Shown one piece after another: positions 1,077-14,000 of a DNA stretch of 15,445 nt. The stretch comes from Tubiluchus corallicola (lineage: Eukaryota > Animalia > Priapulida): contig JAQGDQ010002087.1 in NCBI GenBank assembly GCA_030141605.1, positions 1 to 15,445 on the forward strand. Direction: 5' to 3'. Within the stretch, counting starts at the first letter, position 1. Each line of letters opens with the position of its first letter. The notes below the pieces were generated by a model. It had not been told where the DNA came from. It saw only the letters and a list, made by a program, of their open reading frames with translations, and did no database searches. Made by a program: the position numbers and the translations under genes.

Positions 1077-1111
<35 letters not shown>

Positions 1112-1297
1112 CAAGCAAGCAAATAAGTAAGTAAGTAAGTTTATTAGTTTATCACCATTTTTAAAATAGCAAAATACATAACTAAGAGATTTGTAAATAT
1201 GTACACCATACAATAATATTACAAAGTGCAAAAGTAATTATTGATTAGTGGTGAAAGGGTGGTGAAAGAACTATAAGTTATCCAGGTCAGCCACCCT
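1077..1297 (-). mobile_element. LINE-like (CR1/L2-group-like) 3' end remnant with (TTAC)n tail and stem-loop
   Basis: (AAGT)n at 1077-1140 followed by tttatt (AATAAA on minus strand); hairpin agggtgg...ccaccct at 1256-1297, similar to 8130-8176. 5' boundary uncertain. Confidence 0.6.
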
Positions 1298-1639
1298 CTC
1301 AGGATTGTTACTAATATAATTAATTAGTTACAAGTTATGCCACATGCTTAAGTTTCTGAAAGACTGGAAGCCATTCTTTCGCGTTCTCAATGAGCGTAGT
1401 AGTAGTGGTGTTGGTTTTGAAAGCTGTTGTTCTGGACTTAATCTTAGCCTTGATTACTCCGGTTTTAGGCACAACTCTTGTTCTAATTATCACTAGTTAG
1501 GCTAATCATCCGAGCAGTCTGAGTGCCATCTAAAATTGAAACTGAAATTGGCTTAGTTGACTGACAAAAACTGGTAGAGTGTCAACTCACCCAGCAGACA
1601 ACTTGAATCGTTTTACATGGTATATTCATTTGCATTGTG

Positions 1640-1718
1640 AATCTAGCCACGGGGGGGGGGGGGGGGTGAGCCAGCCCAACTCAGTGCCAGTCCCAAGCCT
1701 GGATAAATAGGGAGAGTT
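1640..1718 (+). ncRNA. Twister ribozyme-like fold (type P1, 3' cleavage product), probably degenerate
   Basis: AA(1640-41); P2 TCTA(1642-45)/TAGG(1708-11); GC(1646-47); P3 CAC..TGAG/CTCAGTG; P4 CCAG(1687-90)/CTGG(1699-1702) closing the loop TCCCAAGC; GA-GAG(1712-16) where the consensus is GA-GGG. Confidence 0.75.
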
Positions 1719-2139
1719 AAGGTCAGGGAGGGCATCCGCCTGTAAAAACTGCGCCAAAACCTTCTATGAATGAGTCAGTGAGACTTAAAGGGAAAGTCCA
1801 TGAAGAAGTGGTCAGACCCGCTCTAATCTATGGGCTGGAAGCAGCTTCTCTAGAGAAGACCGAAGAGAAGAAAATGGGTGTGGTGGAGATGAGGATGTTG
1901 AGATGGATGGTGGGAATAACAAGAAGAGATAAAATTAGAAATAATAATATCAGAGGAACAGTAAAAGTAGTGGAAGCCTCGCAAGATTGCGATGGTATGG
2001 ACACCTGAAAAGAAGAGTCGGTGAAGATCATGTGGGAAGGGTAGAGATAAATGTAGAGATGGTCAACAACAGGAATGCGTGGAGAAGACTCATTCACAAC
2101 GGCGACCCAGAATAGGGAAAAGCTGGGAAGAAGAAGAAA
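1640..2139 (+). mobile_element. Internally deleted (bipartite) non-autonomous RTE-clade retrotransposon, 500 bp
   Basis: Perfect 16-bp TSD attcatttgcattgtg (1624-1639 / 2140-2155). 5'-UTR-like segment joined at ~1765 to an RT C-terminal remnant (KGKVH..VVRPALIYGLE; EMRMLRWMVGITRRDKIRN; after a frameshift LRWYGHLKRR...NRNAWRRLIHNGDPE*). (GAA)n tail. Confidence 0.92.
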
Positions 2140-2286
2140 ATTCATTTGCATTGTGGTGGAACATTGAAATGTTTTGCAGGCATCTTTGGGTTTAGCCCTT
2201 ATATGTTTTCTGAAGCATTCTTTTCAAAATGATTTTATTGATCCTGCTGTAGTGAAAGTTTTGAAATTGGCATATTTCATTTGTAG

Positions 2287-2430
2287 GTAGATCCAGTGAA
2301 CGTCAACGTACTCGGGATTGTCAAAGATGTCATGAATCATTACGAATGCATCAAGAAAATCATAGACTTTGTGAGGAGTCAATCGGTCATTTGTCCAGAA
2401 TTTCGTCTGTATCCAGACAAGGTGTATGAG
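2287..2430 (+). CDS. Exon A: VDPVNVNVLGIVKDVMNHYECIKKIIDFVRSQSVICPEFRLYPDKVYE (end of preceding domain, start of DBB)
   Basis: Acceptor tttgtag (AG 2285-2286); donor GAG|gttagg at 2431, phase 0. An alternative in-frame donor AAG|gtgtat lies at 2422. Overlaps ORF 2296..2544. Confidence 0.7.
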
Positions 2431-5400
2431 GTTAGGACGTTTTACTTCTTTGCAAAATCTGTAGTAAGAATGTTTGAAGTTAGTTTGCAAATGATTAAAA
2501 TGAAATTACAAAATAAAATTTGTAAAATTATAAAATTTTTGTAATTTGTGGTTTTGTTCCATGTTATTTGAGTAAGTAAGTAAGTAATTTATTTATAGCA
2601 TCATACGTACAACAAAATTTATGAGGTTTTGTGTACTGTAATAATTTATTGACATAACAAGGAGATTAATACAATTAATTCAATCAGTTTTACATTAACA
2701 TAGAGAATTAACATTAGAGATTTACTGTTGATGGTGCAAATTGCAACAGGATAGAAAGAATTTAAAGTTCTTGTGGTTTTAGCTTTAACTGTGCGGTATC
2801 TACTTCCAGAGGGAGCATTTCAAAATATTTATTACCTGGATGGAAATTCATCTTTCATGATAACTTGCACTCTCTTTGTGACCCTAGTTTCGTACAAATG
2901 TGCCACAGATTGCTATTGAATTCATACAATTTTGTTAAACAGGTTATAATTATGTACAAAATGGGTCAAGAATTTAAACATGTCTGTTTGTTGACTCTGA
3001 AGGAGTCAAATCAGTCATTTTTTTTTAAAAAATTTAATGAAATTACAGAGTGCCAGTATAAATAATTGTATATTATGTTTTTCTTTTGAAGGTAACTAAC
3101 AATTTTATTGTTTTTGCATGAGGCATTTAGAAAGGTACAGTCGACCCTTGTTAAACCGGACCCCGTTAGCCCGGATATCGGATAAGACGGACGTCATCTG
3201 ATAAAGGAAACTGACCGATTTCCGTCCGAGCCCGAGCGCTAAACACAACACGGCCTACCAACTGTACAATAATTTCTTTATCCTCACAGGTTAACTATTT
3301 TAAAGTAATATACAGTATAGTATATAGTGCAATGTATATAGGCCTTATTAAGGTGATTATTCCTGTATAGTATAGAGCATATATAGGCATATCGGATAAA
3401 TTGGACAATCGGCTAAACCGGACCCCCCCCCCCCAATTAGTCCGGTTTAACTAGGGTTGACTGTAATTAGTATTTACTATCAGCTGTAGTTAACGTACGA
3501 TATGATTAAGTAAAAAATTTTCTAATTTCTATGTGTTGTATAGAACGATCAAAAACTTTTAATTGTCACCAGTAAGGAGGTGCCCGACAAGTATGAGGTC
3601 AAGGTCAACTTGAAGGGTCAGACTGAAACTACACATCCTACCAAGCGACTCAACAAGTACAGCTTTGAATTCACGGCTCCCGGTAAGATTTGTGTAAATT
3701 ATTGTGAAGTTGTTTATGTAAATTTTGTAAAACTTGCTGAGTAGAGCATGATAGAGTACGCTGGATATGCTAAATGCTATTGAATAATTTAATGTTTCTT
3801 TGTTTTGTCGCAAATGCAGGTGTCTCATAAGTCACCATTAATTTTGATTTCTAACTTGATTTTTCAACAATCTCAGCAAACTCTTACGTAAATCAATCAG
3901 GGCCTTTGATATTCGTTTCATTTATATTTTGACTGGAACTCGGTTGCTATGGTGATGGGAGTAATATTAGAAATAAGGTGTAAAGTCATTCTCTATGTCC
4001 CTCGATCACCAACTTTTTCTTCTTCAATGAATCACACATCCAGGGACACACCGCCCTATGCCATGACTCCCTACATGCTGCAATGCCCCAAGTGGATTTA
4101 TTTCTAAGGATCAATGCTGAAGTGTTTAAATCTTTCCGTGCAAAATCTAAATATGTTAACATTTGTCCTCCTGCAGGTTTTTTAGCTTGTTCTATAGCTT
4201 CTTGAAGAGCTATCTTCACTGGAACATCATCAGGTAGTCTAAGCATATGCCCCATCCATCTTAATCTTTTTATTTTTATTGTCCAAGGTTCTTCTTTTAT
4301 TTTTTTCTTATAGATCTTTGTTTGAAATTTTCTTTGGCCATCTAATACCCAAAATATTTCTGTAATTTCGCCTTTGAAACGCATCAATTTCAGCTTTATG
4401 ATTTGCTTTTAATGTCCAGAGCTCAGAGTTATACAGAAATACAGTTTCAACTGAGGCTGAGAATATTCAGAGCAGTATATAAATTACACTGTTCTCTCAC
4501 TATGATTCAAGGTTAACTTCGTAAATAAAGTTCATGTGTGAATGAATTGCTGTATAGCAGAATAAAAGGAGAAAGACCCGAGTTTGTTTCAGTTTAGTCT
4601 CAGTGAATGAACTGCTGTACAGCAGAATAAAAGGAGAAAGACCCGAGTTCGTTTCAGTTTAGTCTCAGTGAATGAACTGCTGTACAGCAGAATAAAAGGA
4701 GAAAGACCCGAGTTCGTTTCAGTTTAGTCTCAGTGAATGAACTGCTGTACAGCAGAATAAAAGGAGAAAGACCCGAGTTTGTTTCAGTTTAGTCTCAGTG
4801 AATGAACTGCTGTACGGCAGAATAAAAGGAGAAAGACCCGAGTTCGTTTCAGTTTAGTCTCAGTGAATGAATTGCTGTACGGCAGAATAAAAGGAGAAAG
4901 ACCCGAGTTCGTTTCAGTTTAGTCTCAGTGAATGAACTGCTGTACGGCAGAATAAAAGGAGAAAGACCCGAGTTCGTTTCAGTTTAGTCTCAGTGAATGA
5001 ACTGCTGTACGGCAGAATAAAAGGAGAAAGACCCGAGTTCGTTTCAGTTTAGTCTCAGTGAATGAACTGCTGTACAGCAGAATAAAAGGAGAAAGACCCG
5101 AGTTCGTTTCAGTTTAGTCTCAGTGAATGAACTGCTGTACAGCAGAATAAAAGGAGAAAGACCCGAGTTCGCTTCAGTTTAGTCTCAGGGAATGAACTGC
5201 TGTACAGCAGAATAAAAGGAGAAAGACCCGAGTTCGTTTCAGTTTAGTCTCAGTGAATGAACTGCTGTACAGCAGAATAAAAGGAGAAAGACCCGAGTTC
5301 GTTTCAGTTTAGTCTCAGTGAATGAACTGCTGTACAGCAGAATAAAAGGAGAAAGACCCGAGTTCGTTTCAGTTTAGTCTCAGTGAATGAACTGCTGTAC

Positions 5401-7975
5401 AGCAGAATAAAAGGAGAAAGACCCGAGTTCGTTTCAGTTTAGTCTCAGTGAATGAATTGCTGTACAGCAGAATAAAAGGAGAAAGACCCGAGTTTGTTTC
5501 AGTTTAGTCTCAGTGGTAATTGTAAAATTTTAACTGGTAAACTGCCAAGTTTCGTTTGTATTTTACTCAAATTTTTTTTTTTGCTAAACATTAATTTTGT
5601 ATGTTCATGCTGTAATAATACCACTTTCACTTGTCAATTTTGGTAGATGAATTTAAAAGTGTAAGTTTCAAGAAATCGGTCTGGTTGCAGATGAAATTAC
5701 CATTTTTCAGTAGCACATTTGTGGACTCTATAATGATGGTTCTTGCAACTAAAATTATGTGGAACCGCAACAACTTTCGCAGCATTTTTTCCTTGAAAAT
5801 CCTGACATCTCGTCTCCCATTTCTGGCATTTAATTATTGTAATCTCAAGTATCGCTTAGCAACAAACCTAGTAGCCATTAACAATTTGCATGTCTAAAGA
5901 TAAAAGGTGAAACGACAGTCAAAATTTAATGTTCTAATTATATACTGACCCAAATATTAGGATCGATCATTAGTTGATTATCGATCGTTTTTGAAGGTCA
6001 GTGATTGACCATAGAAATAAAACGGATTCCCAACTCTAAATGTCAGATTGTATGAGTCAATAAGGTAGTCACCGTTGAGCACCACGATTTATATGTCGTG
6101 TTTTTAGCTAACAATTTGATGTGAAAGTTTGTTGGGCTTTGTTGTCTTTAGTCAACAGTTTTGTAACTTTGGTATTCCTACTTAAGTTAATGTCCGATTG
6201 TAAAAGCAATACAGCACACAATCAAATTACCGTGGCCTGAGCTACACGAGCAATTAGATTTTACTGTAAATGATATTATCTTCAAACTGGCCATTGTTAT
6301 ACCTCAGTTTACAGATGAACAAACAGTAACATTTCAGGTGTGCCTTTGTTACTTTCTAACAGCAGATAGGCTCATTTTGTACCTGGCAACAGGTGATTTC
6401 AAAATGTCAGTTTGTTATTGACAAACTAGAAGAGATACAAATATTTACAAGCTAGGCTCGTGTAAACCGCTGCTTTGCCGTAGCATCAAAAATGCGCATT
6501 TTTAACTTAAACATTTTTGAAATTGCTTTGACCTTCTTTACAAATGCATTTACATAAATTACTAAATGTTGTGTGGCAAATAGAGTTCAGGTAATTCTGG
6601 CATCTGCTATTTTAGGTTCAGCCAAGCTTCTTAAGTAAAAAAACGCATTTCCACACAATGAGATCAGCCTAGCAACAACAAATTTCCCTGCACCACATAG
6701 TTCACATTTTTTCTACTTTTTACAATTCAATGTTTAACAGTTTTTTATTAAACGGTGAATATTTCCGTGTCTGGAAGCTGAAAATTGTTTGTATATTGGC
6801 TGCCAAAAAATAGTTCCCCTTTTTCAATTCAATTTTAATTTATTTATCTCTTTATAATGCTACAATAAAACATGATTAATAAAAGGATGTCTAATAAGTT
6901 TTGAAGAATTGTTAAAATGTATAGATACATCTAGAACTAGAGAAAGGATAGCGAAAAGACTATAAAGTCACCTAGTCTGCTATCCTTTACCAAATATAGA
7001 TTAAAAGATTTTTTAGACACTGGTGGGCATTAATGTTATCAGTTTAATTTAGGAAACATTAGTAATTTTTAAAATTATGACATTTTCTATATAATCCAGA
7101 GAAAAGAATATACATGTAGTTTAATTAGCGGGCAACAAAATAAGGTCAATCTTGATTAAACTAAAAATTGCATTTAGATTTTATGTGAAATACAGGTGAA
7201 AATTGTTATGAAATGATAAAAACACTTTGGGTTAATAATGCAATTAATCAACAACAGGAGTTGAATACATTTTGATTTGAGTTCAACTTCATTATTTCTA
7301 GGCTTATTGATTAAGAACATAAACTACTACATCCCTTGCTTGTAGTAGTTTGTGAATTCTATTTATCCTTAAATCTGCTCAATTCTTTTCAGGTATATAC
7401 GCTAAATATCGTAGCGTTCAACTGTCTGTGCATTTAATGCACGGCGAAGAGACGAAAACGTTGGGTTCTGTGAAGTTACCATATCAACGGAACTGGGATG
7501 TCTTGACGGAAGCAACAAATCCTCAAACTTTGCTGAGTCAAGTTTTGGGTAAGCAAATTTAGATATTCTTTAGATGTAATCTGTAATCTTTAGATCACAG
7601 ATTGTAATCGAAAAGTTCGAGTTTCTTTTTGTCGTAGGACTTTTATTCCATTTCTCTTTCTTGTCTATTTTTTTCTGACATTTTTCCTTCTTTGTTATAG
7701 GAATACGTGAAAAAATGGGAATGTTTACTGTCCATTTTATCGTAAAATTTTCCATTCTTGTGAAAGCTGTTAAAAATGTCACAAATTAACTAAAGTCTAG
7801 TGATAGCCAGTTTATATATAACCTGATAACTAATTCGTAAAAGCTTCATATCAAGTGATGGTGAAAGTGCCTGCCTTGTTCTTCATAAAAATGGAATTTT
7901 TATATAGTCCTAGATTTTTTACAATATATTTTATTACTTTTGCTGTGTAAAATGCTGTAAAAAAAATCTGGGCTT

Positions 7976-8007
<32 letters not shown>

Positions 8008-11000
8008 TCTTTATTTATCATCTTTTTTACAAGAAAAACACAGAGCATGAAATGATAATATGATACAAAGTGACAAGATTATTAAATGAATAAATTATCT
8101 GAGTTAATGATGATCAAGTGATTGGTGAAAGGGTGGGGGTGGCGAAGAACTAAAAGTTACCAAAGTCAACCACCCTGTATAGTCCATCACAGTTGACTCT
8201 AATTCATACCCGACTTGTGGAATTAATCTACGTCACGAAAATTTGTTTGAATTAAGTTGAAATTTATAATAAATTAGTGGCCACACTTTGTAACAGTTTC
8301 AGTTTAGGATAGGTTTTTTCTTAACCTGTACTTAGGAGCAGTGACTTAGTCATAATTTGCAAAATTTCTTTACTTGACATTTTAAAGATACGTTATATTT
8401 GTTAATTAAAGGAAAACCACCCTCAAACAACGTTCATTGTATTTTAATATACAATTAAAAGTACTGAAATTACCACATACTATACACGTATAAAATCCCT
8501 TGCTGAAAAAGCAAGTAAAATTCATATCTTTATTTCCTGCCAAACCTCACTTGAGTTTTTTGAAAAAATGACGTAAGCTGGCAGACAACATGAAGGCACA
8601 ATTTGTTGATCAATAGCATTATCAACCCAAAGTGTTTTTATCATTTCATAACAATTTTCACCTGTATTTCACATCAAATCTAAATGCAATTTTTAGTTTA
8701 ATCAAGATTGACCTTATTTTGTTGCCCGCTAATTAAACTACATGTATATTCTTTTCTCTGGATTATATAGCAAATGTCATAATTTTAAAAATTACTATTG
8801 TTTCCTAAATTAAACTGATAACATTAATGCCCACCAGTGTCTAAAAAATCATTTTATCTATATTCGGTAAAGGATAGCAGACTAGGTGACTTTATAGTTT
8901 TTTGAAAAAATGACGTAAGCTGGTAGACAACACTTAGGCACGTGTAATAAAACACCTGTATTTCACTTTACAGCTCTGCTATTCTGGCTGATTAAATCTG
9001 TGTGTTTAATTGCGTTTATTCCCGATCAATTGACAACAACTTTAGTACTTGCATATCTCAAAGTGCGTAAGTCCTATGCGTAATCTATTTACAAATAAGC
9101 ATGGAATTCTACGAGGTTGCGAGTACATACTAGGTATACGGAGGTCCTTGGCTTACTGAGTTCAGTTACAGCTTGTTCAAATAATTATTCTGTTAGTTTG
9201 CCGGGGTAAATTAACCGAGGTGAATGGTATTACATTATCATCGGTAACTGGTTTCCGTTAAATATTGGGCAATAAGATTCATCAAAAAGTAGAAAATTGG
9301 ATTAATAATCTCTCGTTTAACATTTTCGGTTGTTTATAGTTGATAACGGTAACTGCAGCTGCAAAACTTTCGCTCAAACACCTGGCGAGACAAGTATTTA
9401 TATAAATCTTATATGGTAACCGTTCAAAATGAGCGCGCCATAGCGTGAAATAATCGGAACTTTAAATTGATTTTACTAATTACACGAGAGACTTAGCACA
9501 ATTTTATTGCTGAAACTTTCTAACATTGTTCCTAAATGTTAAAGTAAGCTCAACTTCCCGAGAGCCTTTAAGCTGGTCTCATTTTTTGGCATGATGTGAC
9601 AATTTAGCATTTATTGCCAATTAATCCTTTTTCTCAAAGACAATTGACCACCACTCTCTAGCATCTGTACCGTAAAATTAACATTCATTATTATAAATTC
9701 GTGTTTCAAACCCCTGCCTTTGCTTTGTCTAGGTTTAGATTCTCAATACGAAATTGATGAGTTGGATAAATATTTGTCAAGCTCATTCACCGCTTTGGAG
9801 ACTGCGCAATTGGAAGTACTGAGCCATAGTTTATTGAATAACCGAGGTAAGAAAGGAGAGAAATAATCTTCAAGCAATGAGCAAAATACTAAGAAGCAAT
9901 TGAAATGTTAACGTCTTGTAAGACTGCCCATTGCTGTATTGAAGTAGATTGCAATGATGGTATTGTTTCACATTCCCTTTATTACCATCACTTTCATATC
10001 AGAGTTGAGAACTGTCAGTTTGACAAACTGTATATCTTTATTTCAGATTTATGCGAGGATACGTGTTACAGCTGCATTGTGTTTTGCTTTAGTACATAAT
10101 GTTAAATGTACTTAGCATAAAACTCACATTCTTGCCTGCCTGGTCAACTTGTCAACAATAATCTCACTTGATACTTCAGTAATAGTAGTTTACTGACTCA
10201 AAAAACTCCAGCATACAACATTTACATACCTTCCAATATGATCACACATAATTAAGAAACATTTCTGTAATGCTCCAAGTTCTTTACTTTCTATACTCCA
10301 GCATACAACATTTACATACCTTCCAATATGATCACACACAATTAAGAAACATTTCTGTAATGCTCGAAGTTCTTTACTTTCTATACTCCACCATACAACA
10401 TTTACATACCTTCCAATATGATCACACATAATTAAGAAACATTTCTGTAATGCTCGAAGTTCTTTACTTTCTATACTCCACCATACAACATTTACGTACC
10501 TTCCAATATGATCACACATAATTAAGAAACATTTCTGTAATGCTCCAAGTTCTTTACTTTCTATACTCCACCATACAACATTTACGTACCTTCCAATATG
10601 ATCACACACAATTAAGAAACATTTCTGTAATGCTCGAAGTTCTTTACTTTCTATACTCCACCATACAACATTTACATACCTTCCAATATGATCACACACA
10701 ATTAAGAAACATTTCTGTAATGCTCGAAGTTCTTTACTTTCTATACTCCACCATACAACATTTACATACCTTCCAATATGATCACACACAATTAAGAAAC
10801 ATTTCTGTAATGCTCGAAGTTCTTTACTTTCTATACTCCGCCATACAACATTTACATACCTTCCAATGTGATCACACATAATTAAGAAACATTTCTGTAA
10901 TGCTCGAAGTTCTTTACTTTCTATACTCCAGCATACAACATTTACGTACCTTCCAATATGATCACACATAATTAAGAAACATTTCTGTAATGCTCCAAGT

Positions 11001-14000
11001 TCTTTACTTTCTATACTCCACCATACAACATTTACGTACCTTCCAATATGATCACACATGATTAAGAAGCATTTCTGTAATGCTCCAAGTTCTTTACTTT
11101 CTATACTCCGCCATACAACATTTACATACATTCTAATGTGATCACACATGATTAAGAAACATTTCTGTAATGCTCCTAGTTCTTTACTTTATGGACTATA
11201 ATTGAACTTACGTTATTAGTGAAAAAATAAATTCTACGACCAAGAAAAAAATTGCCCCATCTATAAATCATTACTATCGGCTAAATTAACACTCTCTCAT
11301 TGACTATGACTATAACCTATTTGAAACGCTCTAAAATTCAATAAGTATAGACATTTTTGAGAAAATGATTTTGGCAATGCAGCTACAGTTTATGCTGTGC
11401 TGAAACAGCGTGAAATTGTCACAGTTACATGGTTAGAAGATATGTGGACAACTTAGTCTTTTATAGTTACCCGTTTTCCTTTTGACTAAACTTTGTTACT
11501 TTAACACTCTTCATTTTAAGTATCTGCCTGTGAAGTCGAAGGCATGGGAAAAAGCATAAACCTTTGTGTGCTATAATAAAAGTTTTAAGCCTGATGGTTT
11601 TCAAGCAAGATGCAGTATCTTATATGAAATTTCAATTAGTATTTAGACTTTTTCTGCCAGTTGCTCAGGGAGTCTTTTAGAATCATTGTTATGAGAGGAT
11701 ATGATTAAAGTATATAATAAATATATATATAATAAGTATATATATAAAGTATATACACTACAAAACCAATAGATAGGTGTATTTACTCAAACCTGTTCTA
11801 TGTAATTTACTATAATTGTAAAGAGAGAGAGTTATAGAGTAAGGGTGTGCGAATTGCGGCTCGCGAGCCACTTGCGGCCCACCGAGAGAATTTGTCAACC
11901 TAATGAAAGTGCGGCCCGGGTGATTAATTGAGTGTATCCAGCTGAAGTCCGTGCCACGATCCCAAAGATAGTGCGGGTAGTTTTTTCTACTAGATCAGAT
12001 GCCATTAACCCTTACAAGACGGTTGTAGCTTAATGTTGCTGTACTACACAGACTGTGTGATACACATTACTAATATGCATTGTAATGAAATTACCACTAT
12101 CTGTCCCGAAAGTAGAAATATATGGTTTGTAATATAAATTTTCGTAAGTTCTAAAATAGTTTCTTGAGTGTAGTAGCAATGATGTACGCAGGTCGGATGC
12201 AAAAAAATCGTTATTAGGCCTTTCTGTACTCGGCTCCTTGACCAAACTGCATGTGGCCCGCAGCAATTGCGGTAAAGTTTAATGTGGCCCGGCTAGTCAG
12301 ATAATTTGCACACCCCTGCTATAGAGTGTTATGGCTCATATGCCATTGACTTGCACATTACATGGTAATTTCAGCGAGTCAAAGATTTTGTTGGTGCGTA
12401 ATGCTAAAATGGTTTTGTGGCTTTGCATCTTGAAATTAAGTTTAATTAGCAATTTCCATTTTCGTGAAGTTAGACGACATACGACGTTGATCATCGTGAT
12501 TTACCTAATGCATTAATGCTGTCGCCGGTGTTCAGTGTTAACATTCAATAAAGCGTATTAAATACTACATTGTTATATCGATTATAACAACTACATAGAT
12601 TGTAATTTAGCATTAATGTTGCTAATGGATCTACGTAAGCTCATTCTAGGAATAATTTTGCTGTTTTAGGTAAAAGCTCGGATCTCGTTCCAACTTTGCT
12701 ACATTTTGCCGCAAGGTTTAATTTACCTAAGCTGTGTGCAGCAGTTCTTGAGCTGCCTGCTGGTCAGGTCGCGTTGCGCATGGAGAACAAAGTTGGCGAA
12801 ACGCCAAGAAAGCTAGCTGAAAAGTATCAGTACCGTAGTGTTGTTAAATATCTGAAAAGCATGGAGGAGAGGGTATGTATATTACAGTTAGTCGGTGGCC
12901 TTAGTTATCTCACCCAATTATTATTTCTACTTTGAAACAAGTTTTTTTTATATCACTCTGCTATTACAATTGATTAAAGAACCCGATTTTTAAGTATGTA
13001 ATGAAAAGTAATCCTTCAGCTGTGCACTACAAAAGAACTGCACTTATTTTCTTCTGTCCTGATTTTATAATTGTACCACTTTCTTACTAAAAGCAGAGAC
13101 AAGATTTTTAGCATTACTGTTAGTTGCTGTCCATAATCGTTTACATTAAGTTGTTGTTGGCATCCTTCTGTCTCGGAAGACAATGGAGCTGCAGCGTCGA
13201 CTGTGGCTGAGCAGTCCGATCCTTGAACCACTGGAGTGGCCTCTCCAGGGCGCACGCCTGGGCAAGGTGTATGGAGACCCTGAGTTGCCCAGACAACAGG
13301 AACCCCCTCTCTTCCTCCCTGGTGTAGTCCAAAGGAAAGCGGAGCGATACGTTTGGCACCAGGTTGGCTGCAGGAGCTGCCGGAGTCAGTGAGCATGCTG
13401 CAGTGGTCCTCCTTCGGGGCTCCACTCCTGATTTGGAAGCTTTACTCCTCTACACATGGCCGTTGGATCACTTGACCGCTTACGTTAAGTAGGCTCCCTC
13501 ATATCCCAGCTTACCAAGTACTGAATTGTATCAGAAAATTGGTATGTTACTACAATGTGTGACGTTTATGTTTAATATTGCAATTTTTCTTAGCAGGCTC
13601 AAAGAAATGACAGAGTAGTTTCACCTCAGACTCCTCAGACTGGTGTGGAAATTCCAGGTATCAATACTGTTAACTCTCTGTCTATCTAGAAAAAAATTAA
13701 GCATTTTTTGGCACTTAACCTTCATGTTTAGTATAGGAAAACATCTTCCTAAATTCAAGCTTGACACACTATTATATTTGTTACAGTACATGAAACATAA
13801 AACAAAAATAAAAATAAAAATTTTCTCTCAAAATATATTTGTGAGAACTTATTCTTTATTAGAAATAAATTAACTTGGATGCTTACCTTTCTATTTATTA
13901 AGAACTTTATAAAAATTCTAGTGATTAAAAATATATAATTGTTTTTTTTACTTCCAGTCAAGTTTATTAAGTTCTTTTTTAAACTTCATACCTGGTCTTA

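What the first reader, a model, noticed from the sequence alone, without database searches (positions are those of the whole stretch)
1640..1718. Retroelement begins exactly at a twister ribozyme cleavage site
Seen: the 16-bp TSD fixes the 5' end at A1640. The element then reads AA-TCTA-GC-[P3]-CCAG-TCCCAAGC-CTGG-ATAAA-TAGG-GA-GAG, with P2, P3, P4 and the GC/GC pseudoknot pairable. Established: type-P1 twister ribozymes have this topology, cleave at N^AA just before P2, and are known at RTE 5' ends. Inference: the inserted RNA was the 3' self-cleavage product, so the ribozyme defined the 5' end, and the missing P1 5' strand must come from the target site. This copy is on the host sense strand upstream of exon A. 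It looks crippled (GAG instead of GGG opposite CCC 1692-94, poor P1 with the flank, G16 in P3), which would spare a host pre-mRNA from cleavage.
Basis: partly seen in the sequence, partly recalled or inferred. Interest (0 to 1): 0.85.

Follow-up and report, generated by a model that had tools for sequence, protein, structure and literature searches.

The report
Dead twister-headed mini-RTE retroposon copy
This 500-base insertion is a decayed copy of an abundant short jumping element whose copies begin at the base where a "twister" self-cutting RNA is predicted to cut, so the ribozyme likely makes the element's front end; this set-up is already published for a blood-fluke retrotransposon, and this copy's ribozyme is likely dead.

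Summary
Observation confirmed. An exact 16-bp duplication (1624-1639 / 2140-2155) bounds a 500-bp element. Rfam twister-P1 matches 1635-1720 (42.7 bits, E 1e-6, below gathering 67.2). The rest is a short 5' leader joined to the internally deleted 3' end of an APE-RT (RTE-like) ORF, ending in a GAA tail. The family carries G1715 (99.9% of summed depth). This copy has A there, at the position equivalent to Osa-1-4 G48, where every substitution cripples a twister, so it is probably inactive. The model (TSD abuts AA, target supplies P1) is published for Schistosoma Perere-3, and bipartite non-autonomous RTEs are known. The scan has noted twister-headed mini-RTEs in three other genomes. Host-driven crippling is not supported: the copy has at least 14 changes from the family, spread along its length, and the same G>A occurs in about 2% of listed Schistosoma sequences. 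A second haplotype makes the 5' end uncertain by one base. New member of a known kind.

The parts
1624..1639 (+). Left target-site duplication; its last bases would supply the 5' strand of twister P1 and the N-1 base G1639
   Evidence: Exact 16-bp repeat; Rfam alignment pairs 1635-1638 with 1717-1720
1640..1720 (+). Degenerate type-P1 twister head: AA 1640-41 (predicted cut 1639/1640), P2 1642-45/1708-11, T2 1646-47/1697-98, P3 1648-1686 with G16 at 1651-66, P4 1687-90/1699-1702, general-base G1712, broken T1 (A1715)
   Evidence: family letters C1642, G1689, C1700, G1715, G1720
1721..1774 (+). Short non-coding leader, likely the parent LINE's 5' UTR (resemblance to RTE 5' UTRs is recalled, not tested)
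   Evidence: Part of the high-depth repeat, with contigs bridging into the ORF fragment
1775..2115 (+). Internally deleted, frameshifted 3' end of an APE-RT ORF (RTE-like): aa 815-884 and 889-962 of P0004, with a 30-aa gap near 2041-2047
   Evidence: tblastn 74% identity over 70 aa, E 9e-38; 29 homologues among 63 candidates
2116..2139 (+). 3' UTR and (GAA)n tail
   Evidence: Sequence; sister contigs diverge into other flanks at 2137-2142
2140..2155 (+). Right target-site duplication (could extend to 2156 in a second haplotype)
2287..2430 (+). Host exon A, first of five in-frame exons of a likely DBB/ankyrin (BCAP/Dof-like) gene; context, not part of the element
   Evidence: Splicing in frame; weak Pfam DBB E 0.11 and Ank_2 E 0.019 on later exons; the BCAP name is recalled

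Best explanation
[quoted passage not shown] Inferred steps: (1) a source copy is transcribed inside a host or read-through transcript; (2) the twister, whose core lies wholly downstream of the cut, cleaves at N^AA, borrowing a weak and dispensable P1 5' strand from whatever flank it sits in; (3) the RT/APE protein of an autonomous RTE recognises the retained 3' end, and target-primed reverse transcription copies the RNA to its 5'-OH AA end, leaving a TSD. This copy then decayed, most likely neutrally. G1715>A breaks the middle pair of pseudoknot T1 and a G16 run is predicted to misfold P2/P4, so it likely no longer cuts.
For: TSD and element limits. Rfam hit whose NAA loop falls at the TSD edge. 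Summed contig depth in X1 is flat at 142.5 over 1590-1629, then 986 at 1640-44 and 475,399 at 1675-79. Of 24 loose-end rows shown (45 not shown), 10 lie before 1643-1659 in X1, X2 and X4. Nine of them (35 of 40 contigs) read AA then C(CTAGCCACT) after flanks that differ between rows, with A, C, G or T before the AA. Family majority gives a canonical core: G1715 in 99.9% or more of summed depth in X1, X2 and X4; G1689 and C1700 in 97.5-99.9%. The 3' part matches APE-RT ORFs at 66-75% identity, and contigs bridge the junctions at high depth. Same model shown for Perere-3, with G^AA cleaving in vitro (PMC8501958). G48 is one of four positions where every substitution gave relative activity under 0.2 (PMC5113685). 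As-is fold: P2 and P4 pair probability 0.00, against P4 0.79-0.95 and P2 0.73-0.99 (one pair 0) in four phage twisters.
Against: No cleavage assay. Rfam score is below gathering (42.7 vs 67.2), although 3 of 4 P1-type phage controls are too (59-66 bits). One of the 10 rows (X1 1657, 5 contigs, agreement 0.5) does not show the motif clearly, and 45 rows were hidden. Loose-end lines are blends of several loci, and TSDs of sister copies were not seen. X1 and X2 are one sample and may be the window's source. A second haplotype (A2156) leaves this copy's 5' end uncertain by one base. No autonomous twister-headed RTE was recovered from this genome. ViennaRNA does not model pseudoknots.
Confidence: 0.88

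Rival explanations
1. Same element, but the loss of ribozyme activity in this copy was favoured by selection: an active twister on the sense strand about 650 nt upstream of a splice acceptor would cut the host pre-mRNA, so only a crippled allele persisted.
For: The copy is on the host's sense strand. A1715 is private or nearly so: non-G depth is 6.7 in X4 against a left-flank depth of 6.55, and 330 in X1 against about 150. Five point changes fall in 65 ribozyme bases against 9 listed in the other 419 (Fisher p 0.028 if none of the 8 hidden rows count). Fast intronic ribozymes reduce splicing (Fong 2009 as cited in PMC10919898, passages).
Against: p rises to 0.08-0.16 if 4-8 hidden rows lie outside the ribozyme. 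Four of the five changes keep pairing: U-G in P2; A-U for G-C in P4, made of two CpG-type transitions and also seen in phage twister L001; A1720 pairs with T1635. With 14-22 random changes the chance of hitting one of 10-20 critical bases is 0.25-0.60. The same GAGAG string occurs 58 times against 2,509 GAGGG in the Liu supplement (redundant lists). One copy cannot show selection.
Confidence: 0.2
2. The 5' end is set by something other than cleavage, such as an internal promoter starting at the AA or reverse transcriptase stalling at the base of the structure, and the twister is a passenger inherited from the parent LINE.
For: No cleavage or 5'-end RNA data here. A stable structure could arrest RT (general knowledge). 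The Liu supplement lists many copies lacking one or both As (part 1 seen), so ends are not always exact.
Against: Ends fall at the scissile bond, two unpaired bases outside P2, in 9 of 10 rows. Cleavage at that bond was mapped in vitro and in a yeast reporter for Perere-3 heads. No tRNA gene and no A/B-box match to recalled patterns.
Confidence: 0.08
3. This copy still cleaves slowly and acts as a regulatory intronic ribozyme for the host gene, as described for CPEB3.
For: A1640, A1641, G1712, A1713, T2 and P4 are intact. Twisters tolerate many mutations (71% of single mutants keep activity). The same insertion is present in two studies.
Against: The one T1 change is at a position where no substitution is tolerated in Osa-1-4. 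The twister-like nested fold is predicted 6.2 kcal/mol above the minimum, and a G-quadruplex is also possible.
Confidence: 0.05

Closest known systems
T-variant twister ribozymes at the 5' end of Perere-3 (RTE clade), Schistosoma mansoni; Liu et al. 2021, PMC8501958 (parts 1 and 3-7 of 9 read; supplement part 1 of 104 seen and searched)
   Same: Type-P1 twister at the element's first base; TSD next to the AA; TSD supplies the P1 5' strand; insertion not site-specific; any base before AA; short-repeat 3' tail.
   Different: Here the element is a 500-bp non-autonomous deletion derivative, not a full-length LINE. It has a different P2 (CCTA/TAGG) and P3, a GAA rather than GTAA tail, and another host. 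Three short motifs of this family were not found in their supplement (the search works; three scanned tables are unreadable).
Bipartite non-autonomous RTE LINEs (RTESINE1/2, WALLSI3, MAR4_MD, Bov-A); Kojima 2018, PMC5786205 (passages and section 23 read)
   Same: 5' end plus 3' end of an RTE joined by internal deletion, no small-RNA head. Kojima links retention of the exact 5' end to 5' ribozymes.
   Different: The ribozymes cited there are HDV-like (Ruminski 2011, seen only as cited). This family keeps about 340 bp of ORF 3' end, not just UTRs.
R2 SIDEs (Eickbush and Eickbush 2012; seen only as described in PMC6765202 passages)
   Same: Short internally deleted non-autonomous elements that keep the 5' ribozyme and use the parent's protein in trans.
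   Different: HDV-like ribozyme, R2 clade, site-specific in 28S rDNA.
Rfam twister-P1 (RF03160), e.g. Osa-1-4
   Same: L1 AA, P2, T2, P4 and L4, general-base G.
   Different: Long P3 with a G run; T1 middle pair broken in this copy; P1 depends on the flank.

Membership tests
Type-P1 twister ribozyme (this copy) | Rfam RF03160 gathering score (67.2 bits) | tested here: not met
   42.7 bits, E 1.1e-6, full-length model; 3 of 4 P1-type phage controls also fall below gathering
Type-P1 twister ribozyme (this copy) | P2 (4 bp), P4 with conserved L4, pseudoknot T2, scissile N^AA, general-base G | tested here: met
   G45 as general base from PMC6154101 (passages)
Type-P1 twister ribozyme (this copy) | Pseudoknot T1, three Watson-Crick pairs (PMC5408937 passages) | tested here: not met
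   C1693-A1715 mismatch. The copy is therefore filed as a twister relic, not an intact member
Type-P1 twister ribozyme (family head) | T1 GGG and canonical P4 in the majority of copies | tested here: met
   G1715 99.9% or more; G1689 and C1700 97.5-99.9% of summed depth in X1, X2, X4
Type-P1 twister ribozyme (family head) | Self-cleavage at N^AA | not testable with these tools
   Needs an in vitro assay
Perere-3-like ribozyme-defined 5' end | Copies start at the AA after unrelated flanks | tested here: met
   9 of 10 shown rows, 35 of 40 contigs; 45 rows hidden
Perere-3-like ribozyme-defined 5' end | TSD abuts the AA | tested here: met
   This copy only, within one base given haplotype A2156; sister TSDs not seen
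Bipartite non-autonomous RTE LINE | 3' part derived from the 3' end of a single-ORF APE-RT LINE, with microsatellite tail | tested here: met
   (P0004: 962 aa, PF03372 + PF00078; match runs to its last residue); GAA tail. The RTE clade label rests on this architecture and on recall; no tree was built
Bipartite non-autonomous RTE LINE | Deletion junctions shared by many copies | tested here: met
   Contigs bridge 1775 (e.g. X1 1747-1870, X4 1732-1891) and 41 X1 contigs align across 2042
Bipartite non-autonomous RTE LINE | 5' part identical to the 5' end of an autonomous partner in the same genome | tested here: inconclusive
   No genome held. Loose ends at 1776, 2041 and 2047 read as undeleted RT sequence, so longer relatives exist, but none was linked to the head
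Pol III SINE | tRNA/5S/7SL-derived head with A and B boxes | tested here: not met
   No tRNA, no such Rfam hit, no match to recalled box patterns

The most novel reading that the evidence does not exclude
Because thousands of copies of this young family carry a self-sufficient twister core, host genomes filter them by orientation. Copies on the sense strand of introns persist only once the ribozyme is broken, as here at the one T1 base where no substitution is tolerated, while antisense and intergenic copies stay intact. The family would then be a genome-wide natural experiment on the fitness cost of intronic self-cleavage.
Probability: 0.2. Interest if true: 0.55.

Novelty: new member of a known kind. 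Interest (0 to 1): 0.24.

Why it matters
It extends the twister-headed RTE arrangement from Schistosoma Perere-3 to a short non-autonomous family in another animal, and fits the idea that ribozyme-headed LINEs spawn promoterless mini-elements. I found no paper on twister-headed non-autonomous RTEs in five keyword searches, but both halves are published and the scan has noted the combination in three other genomes. The remaining value is as material: a high-copy family in which orientation-dependent ribozyme decay can be tested.

Tried and rejected
No whole genome is held for this window, so copies could not be listed by orientation. A family-specific pattern found nothing in metagenome contigs or prokaryote genomes. 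A full RTE protein found no confirmed locus in metagenome contigs (27 pattern matches, 0 confirmed). A generic twister pattern gave 5 viral loci, used only as folding and scoring controls. No RNA holder was listed among public runs, so there is no evidence on expression either way. No joint skipping the whole element was among the 15 shown of 17, so an empty allele is neither shown nor excluded. Host identification: no homologue for the ankyrin exon among 86 candidates, only generic ankyrin hits in PDB, nothing clear for exon B; the Atlas gave unnamed eukaryotic clusters, commonest Cnidaria and Mollusca on very few records, so the host lineage is not established. Rejected: the G16 as an assembly artefact (present in X4 to 1666 and X1 to 1663; G runs of other lengths occur in other contigs). 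Rejected: A1689/T1700 as damage (they pair, and L001 has the same pair). Rejected: poor P1 as decisive. Rejected: Rfam MIR4227 hit at 457-567 (28.8 bits vs gathering 100). The bacterial promoter scan is not informative for this host. A search for exon tethering gave one irrelevant paper. No look-alike findings by sequence or in this genome.

Full report
Observation. The window holds an exact 16-bp direct repeat at 1624-1639 and 2140-2155. It bounds a 500-bp, GC-richer segment that ends in a (GAA)n tail. A scan of the whole window against Rfam gave two matches at E up to 1; the better is twister-P1 at 1635-1720 on +, covering the full model (42.7 bits, E 1.1e-6, gathering 67.2). The model's NAA loop falls on G1639-A1640-A1641, so the predicted cut is at the TSD edge. 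P2, P4 and T2 pair fully, P3 has three closing pairs and is then interrupted, P1 has 3 of 4 pairs, and T1 has a C1693-A1715 mismatch.

What the element is. Bases 1775-2112 match the C-terminus of single-ORF endonuclease/RT proteins (74% over 70 aa to P0004, running to its last residue, with a frameshift near 1981 and a 30-aa gap). The named hits are uncharacterised crustacean and plant proteins; the RTE label rests on the APE-RT architecture and on recall, not on a tree. No genome is held, so I used contigs of four public runs: X1 and X2 are one sample that may be the window's source, X4 is another study, X5 another organism. Summed depth in X1 is about 150 in both flanks and about 1e5-1e6 across 1638-2147. 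The tool warns that this is no copy number, but it shows a high-copy repeat with these limits. Contigs bridge the junction near 1775 and the gap near 2042 at high depth, so the deletions belong to the family. Loose ends at 1776, 2041 and 2047 read as undeleted RT sequence, so longer relatives also exist. The element is thus a non-autonomous, internally deleted LINE derivative of the bipartite kind described by Kojima (PMC5786205; passages and section 23).

Test of the 5' end. Laying the runs on 1590-1735, depth in X1 is flat at 142.5 to 1629 and rises only from about 1635-1644. Of 24 loose-end rows shown (45 hidden), 10 lie before 1643-1659 in X1, X2 and X4. Nine of these (35 of 40 contigs) end in AA followed by C(CTAGCCACT), one of them with two blurred letters, after A/T-rich flanks that differ between rows; the base before the AA is A in 2 rows, G in 1, C in 3 and T in 3. 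The tenth row (5 contigs, agreement 0.5) is unclear. One result cuts against precision for this copy: a second haplotype has A at 2156 (X1 72.5 of 174.8; also X2), which would make the duplication 17 bp and A1640 ambiguous. X5 holds related heads with other P2/P3 sequences.

State of this copy. The family has G at 1715 in 99.89% (X1), 99.98% (X2) and 99.96% (X4) of summed depth; the remainder in X4 (6.7) equals the left-flank depth (6.55), so A1715 is private or nearly so. Taking G1712 as the general base G45 (PMC6154101 passages), 1715 is G48 of Osa-1-4. In the saturation scan of Kobori and Yokobayashi (PMC5113685, part 1 of 2 read), G48 is one of four positions where every substitution gave relative activity under 0.2, whereas P1 was robust. 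T1 has three Watson-Crick pairs (PMC5408937 passages). Folded as it stands, 1630-1725 gives P2 and P4 a probability of 0.00, with the G run taking the C-rich strands; four phage twisters folded the same way give P4 0.79-0.95 and P2 0.73-0.99 apart from one pair (pseudoknots not modelled). The family's P3 5' strand is G-rich and 8-16 nt long, judging by where CCACT joins the alignment; its letters were not resolved. The copy is probably inactive.

Selection or decay. The copy departs from the family at 14 or more listed sites (8 rows hidden). Five fall in the ribozyme outside the G run and 9 in the other 419 bases; Fisher p is 0.028, 0.079 or 0.16 if 0, 4 or 8 hidden rows lie outside. Four of the five keep pairing, two as CpG-type transitions. 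A random set of 14-22 changes hits one of 10-20 critical bases with probability 0.25-0.60. In the Liu supplement the same GAGAG string appears 58 times against 2,509 GAGGG (redundant lists). The host gene is on + (five exons, 252 aa, no stop; weak DBB and ankyrin hits) and fast intronic ribozymes can lower splicing (as cited in PMC10919898, passages), so the idea is reasonable. One copy cannot distinguish it from ordinary decay; I give it 0.2.

Comparison with what is known. Liu et al. 2021 (PMC8501958; parts 1 and 3-7 of 9 read) report the same model for Perere-3: twister at the 5' end of all 113 full-length copies, TSDs next to the AA, TSD forming the P1 5' strand, and C, G or A tolerated before the AA. 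R2 SIDEs are the HDV-headed precedent for non-autonomous derivatives (PMC6765202 passages). Searches listed no paper on twister-headed non-autonomous RTEs; the library lacks most subscription papers and Repbase, and three scanned tables of the Liu supplement could not be read. The scan's own notes list three twister-headed mini-RTEs in other genomes (unchecked, not support).

Verdict. Real, well supported and already explained in principle: a new member of a known kind. Interest 0.24. The open part is the orientation-dependent selection test.

Noticed in passing
window 6954-7254 and 8603-8903: 301-nt inverted repeat, 97% complementary, 1348 nt apart, enclosing host exon C (7393-7548); a 46-nt direct repeat lies at 8554 and 8896. 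Such an arm pair could affect exon skipping or circularisation, or be the ends of a foldback element.
   Followed up: partly
window 3136-3465: MITE-like element with 26-nt terminal inverted repeats starting TACAGTC, Tc1/mariner-like by recall.
   Followed up: partly
window 11841-12319: Element with terminal inverted repeats and an 8-bp duplication at 11833 and 12320, hAT-like by recall.
   Followed up: partly
window 4538-5515 and 10205-11190: Intronic tandem arrays: 65-nt unit (about 15 copies) and 90-nt unit (about 11 copies), 95-98% identical. A 49-nt stretch at 914-962 resembles the 90-nt unit (71-76%).
   Followed up: no
window 3986-4408 (-): 140-aa open frame that looks like the C-terminal end of another LINE RT; no Pfam hit and no tblastn hit from the four RTE proteins.
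   Followed up: partly
window 1110-1297 and 7976-8176: Two related (68%) segments next to (GTAA)n runs, likely 3' ends of another retroelement on the minus strand.
   Followed up: no
window 13150-13500: GC-rich (58%) intronic segment that looks like a retroelement 5' region; no TSD of 7 bp or more found and no Rfam hit.
   Followed up: partly
L003 460-514 and 773-835: Viral contig with two twister-P1 matches about 260 nt apart on the same strand.
   Followed up: no
window 2135 to 2079 joint in X1 and X4: Contigs in two studies join the tail back to 2079 with the same 6 letters between, suggesting a sister copy with a duplicated 3' end.
   Followed up: no
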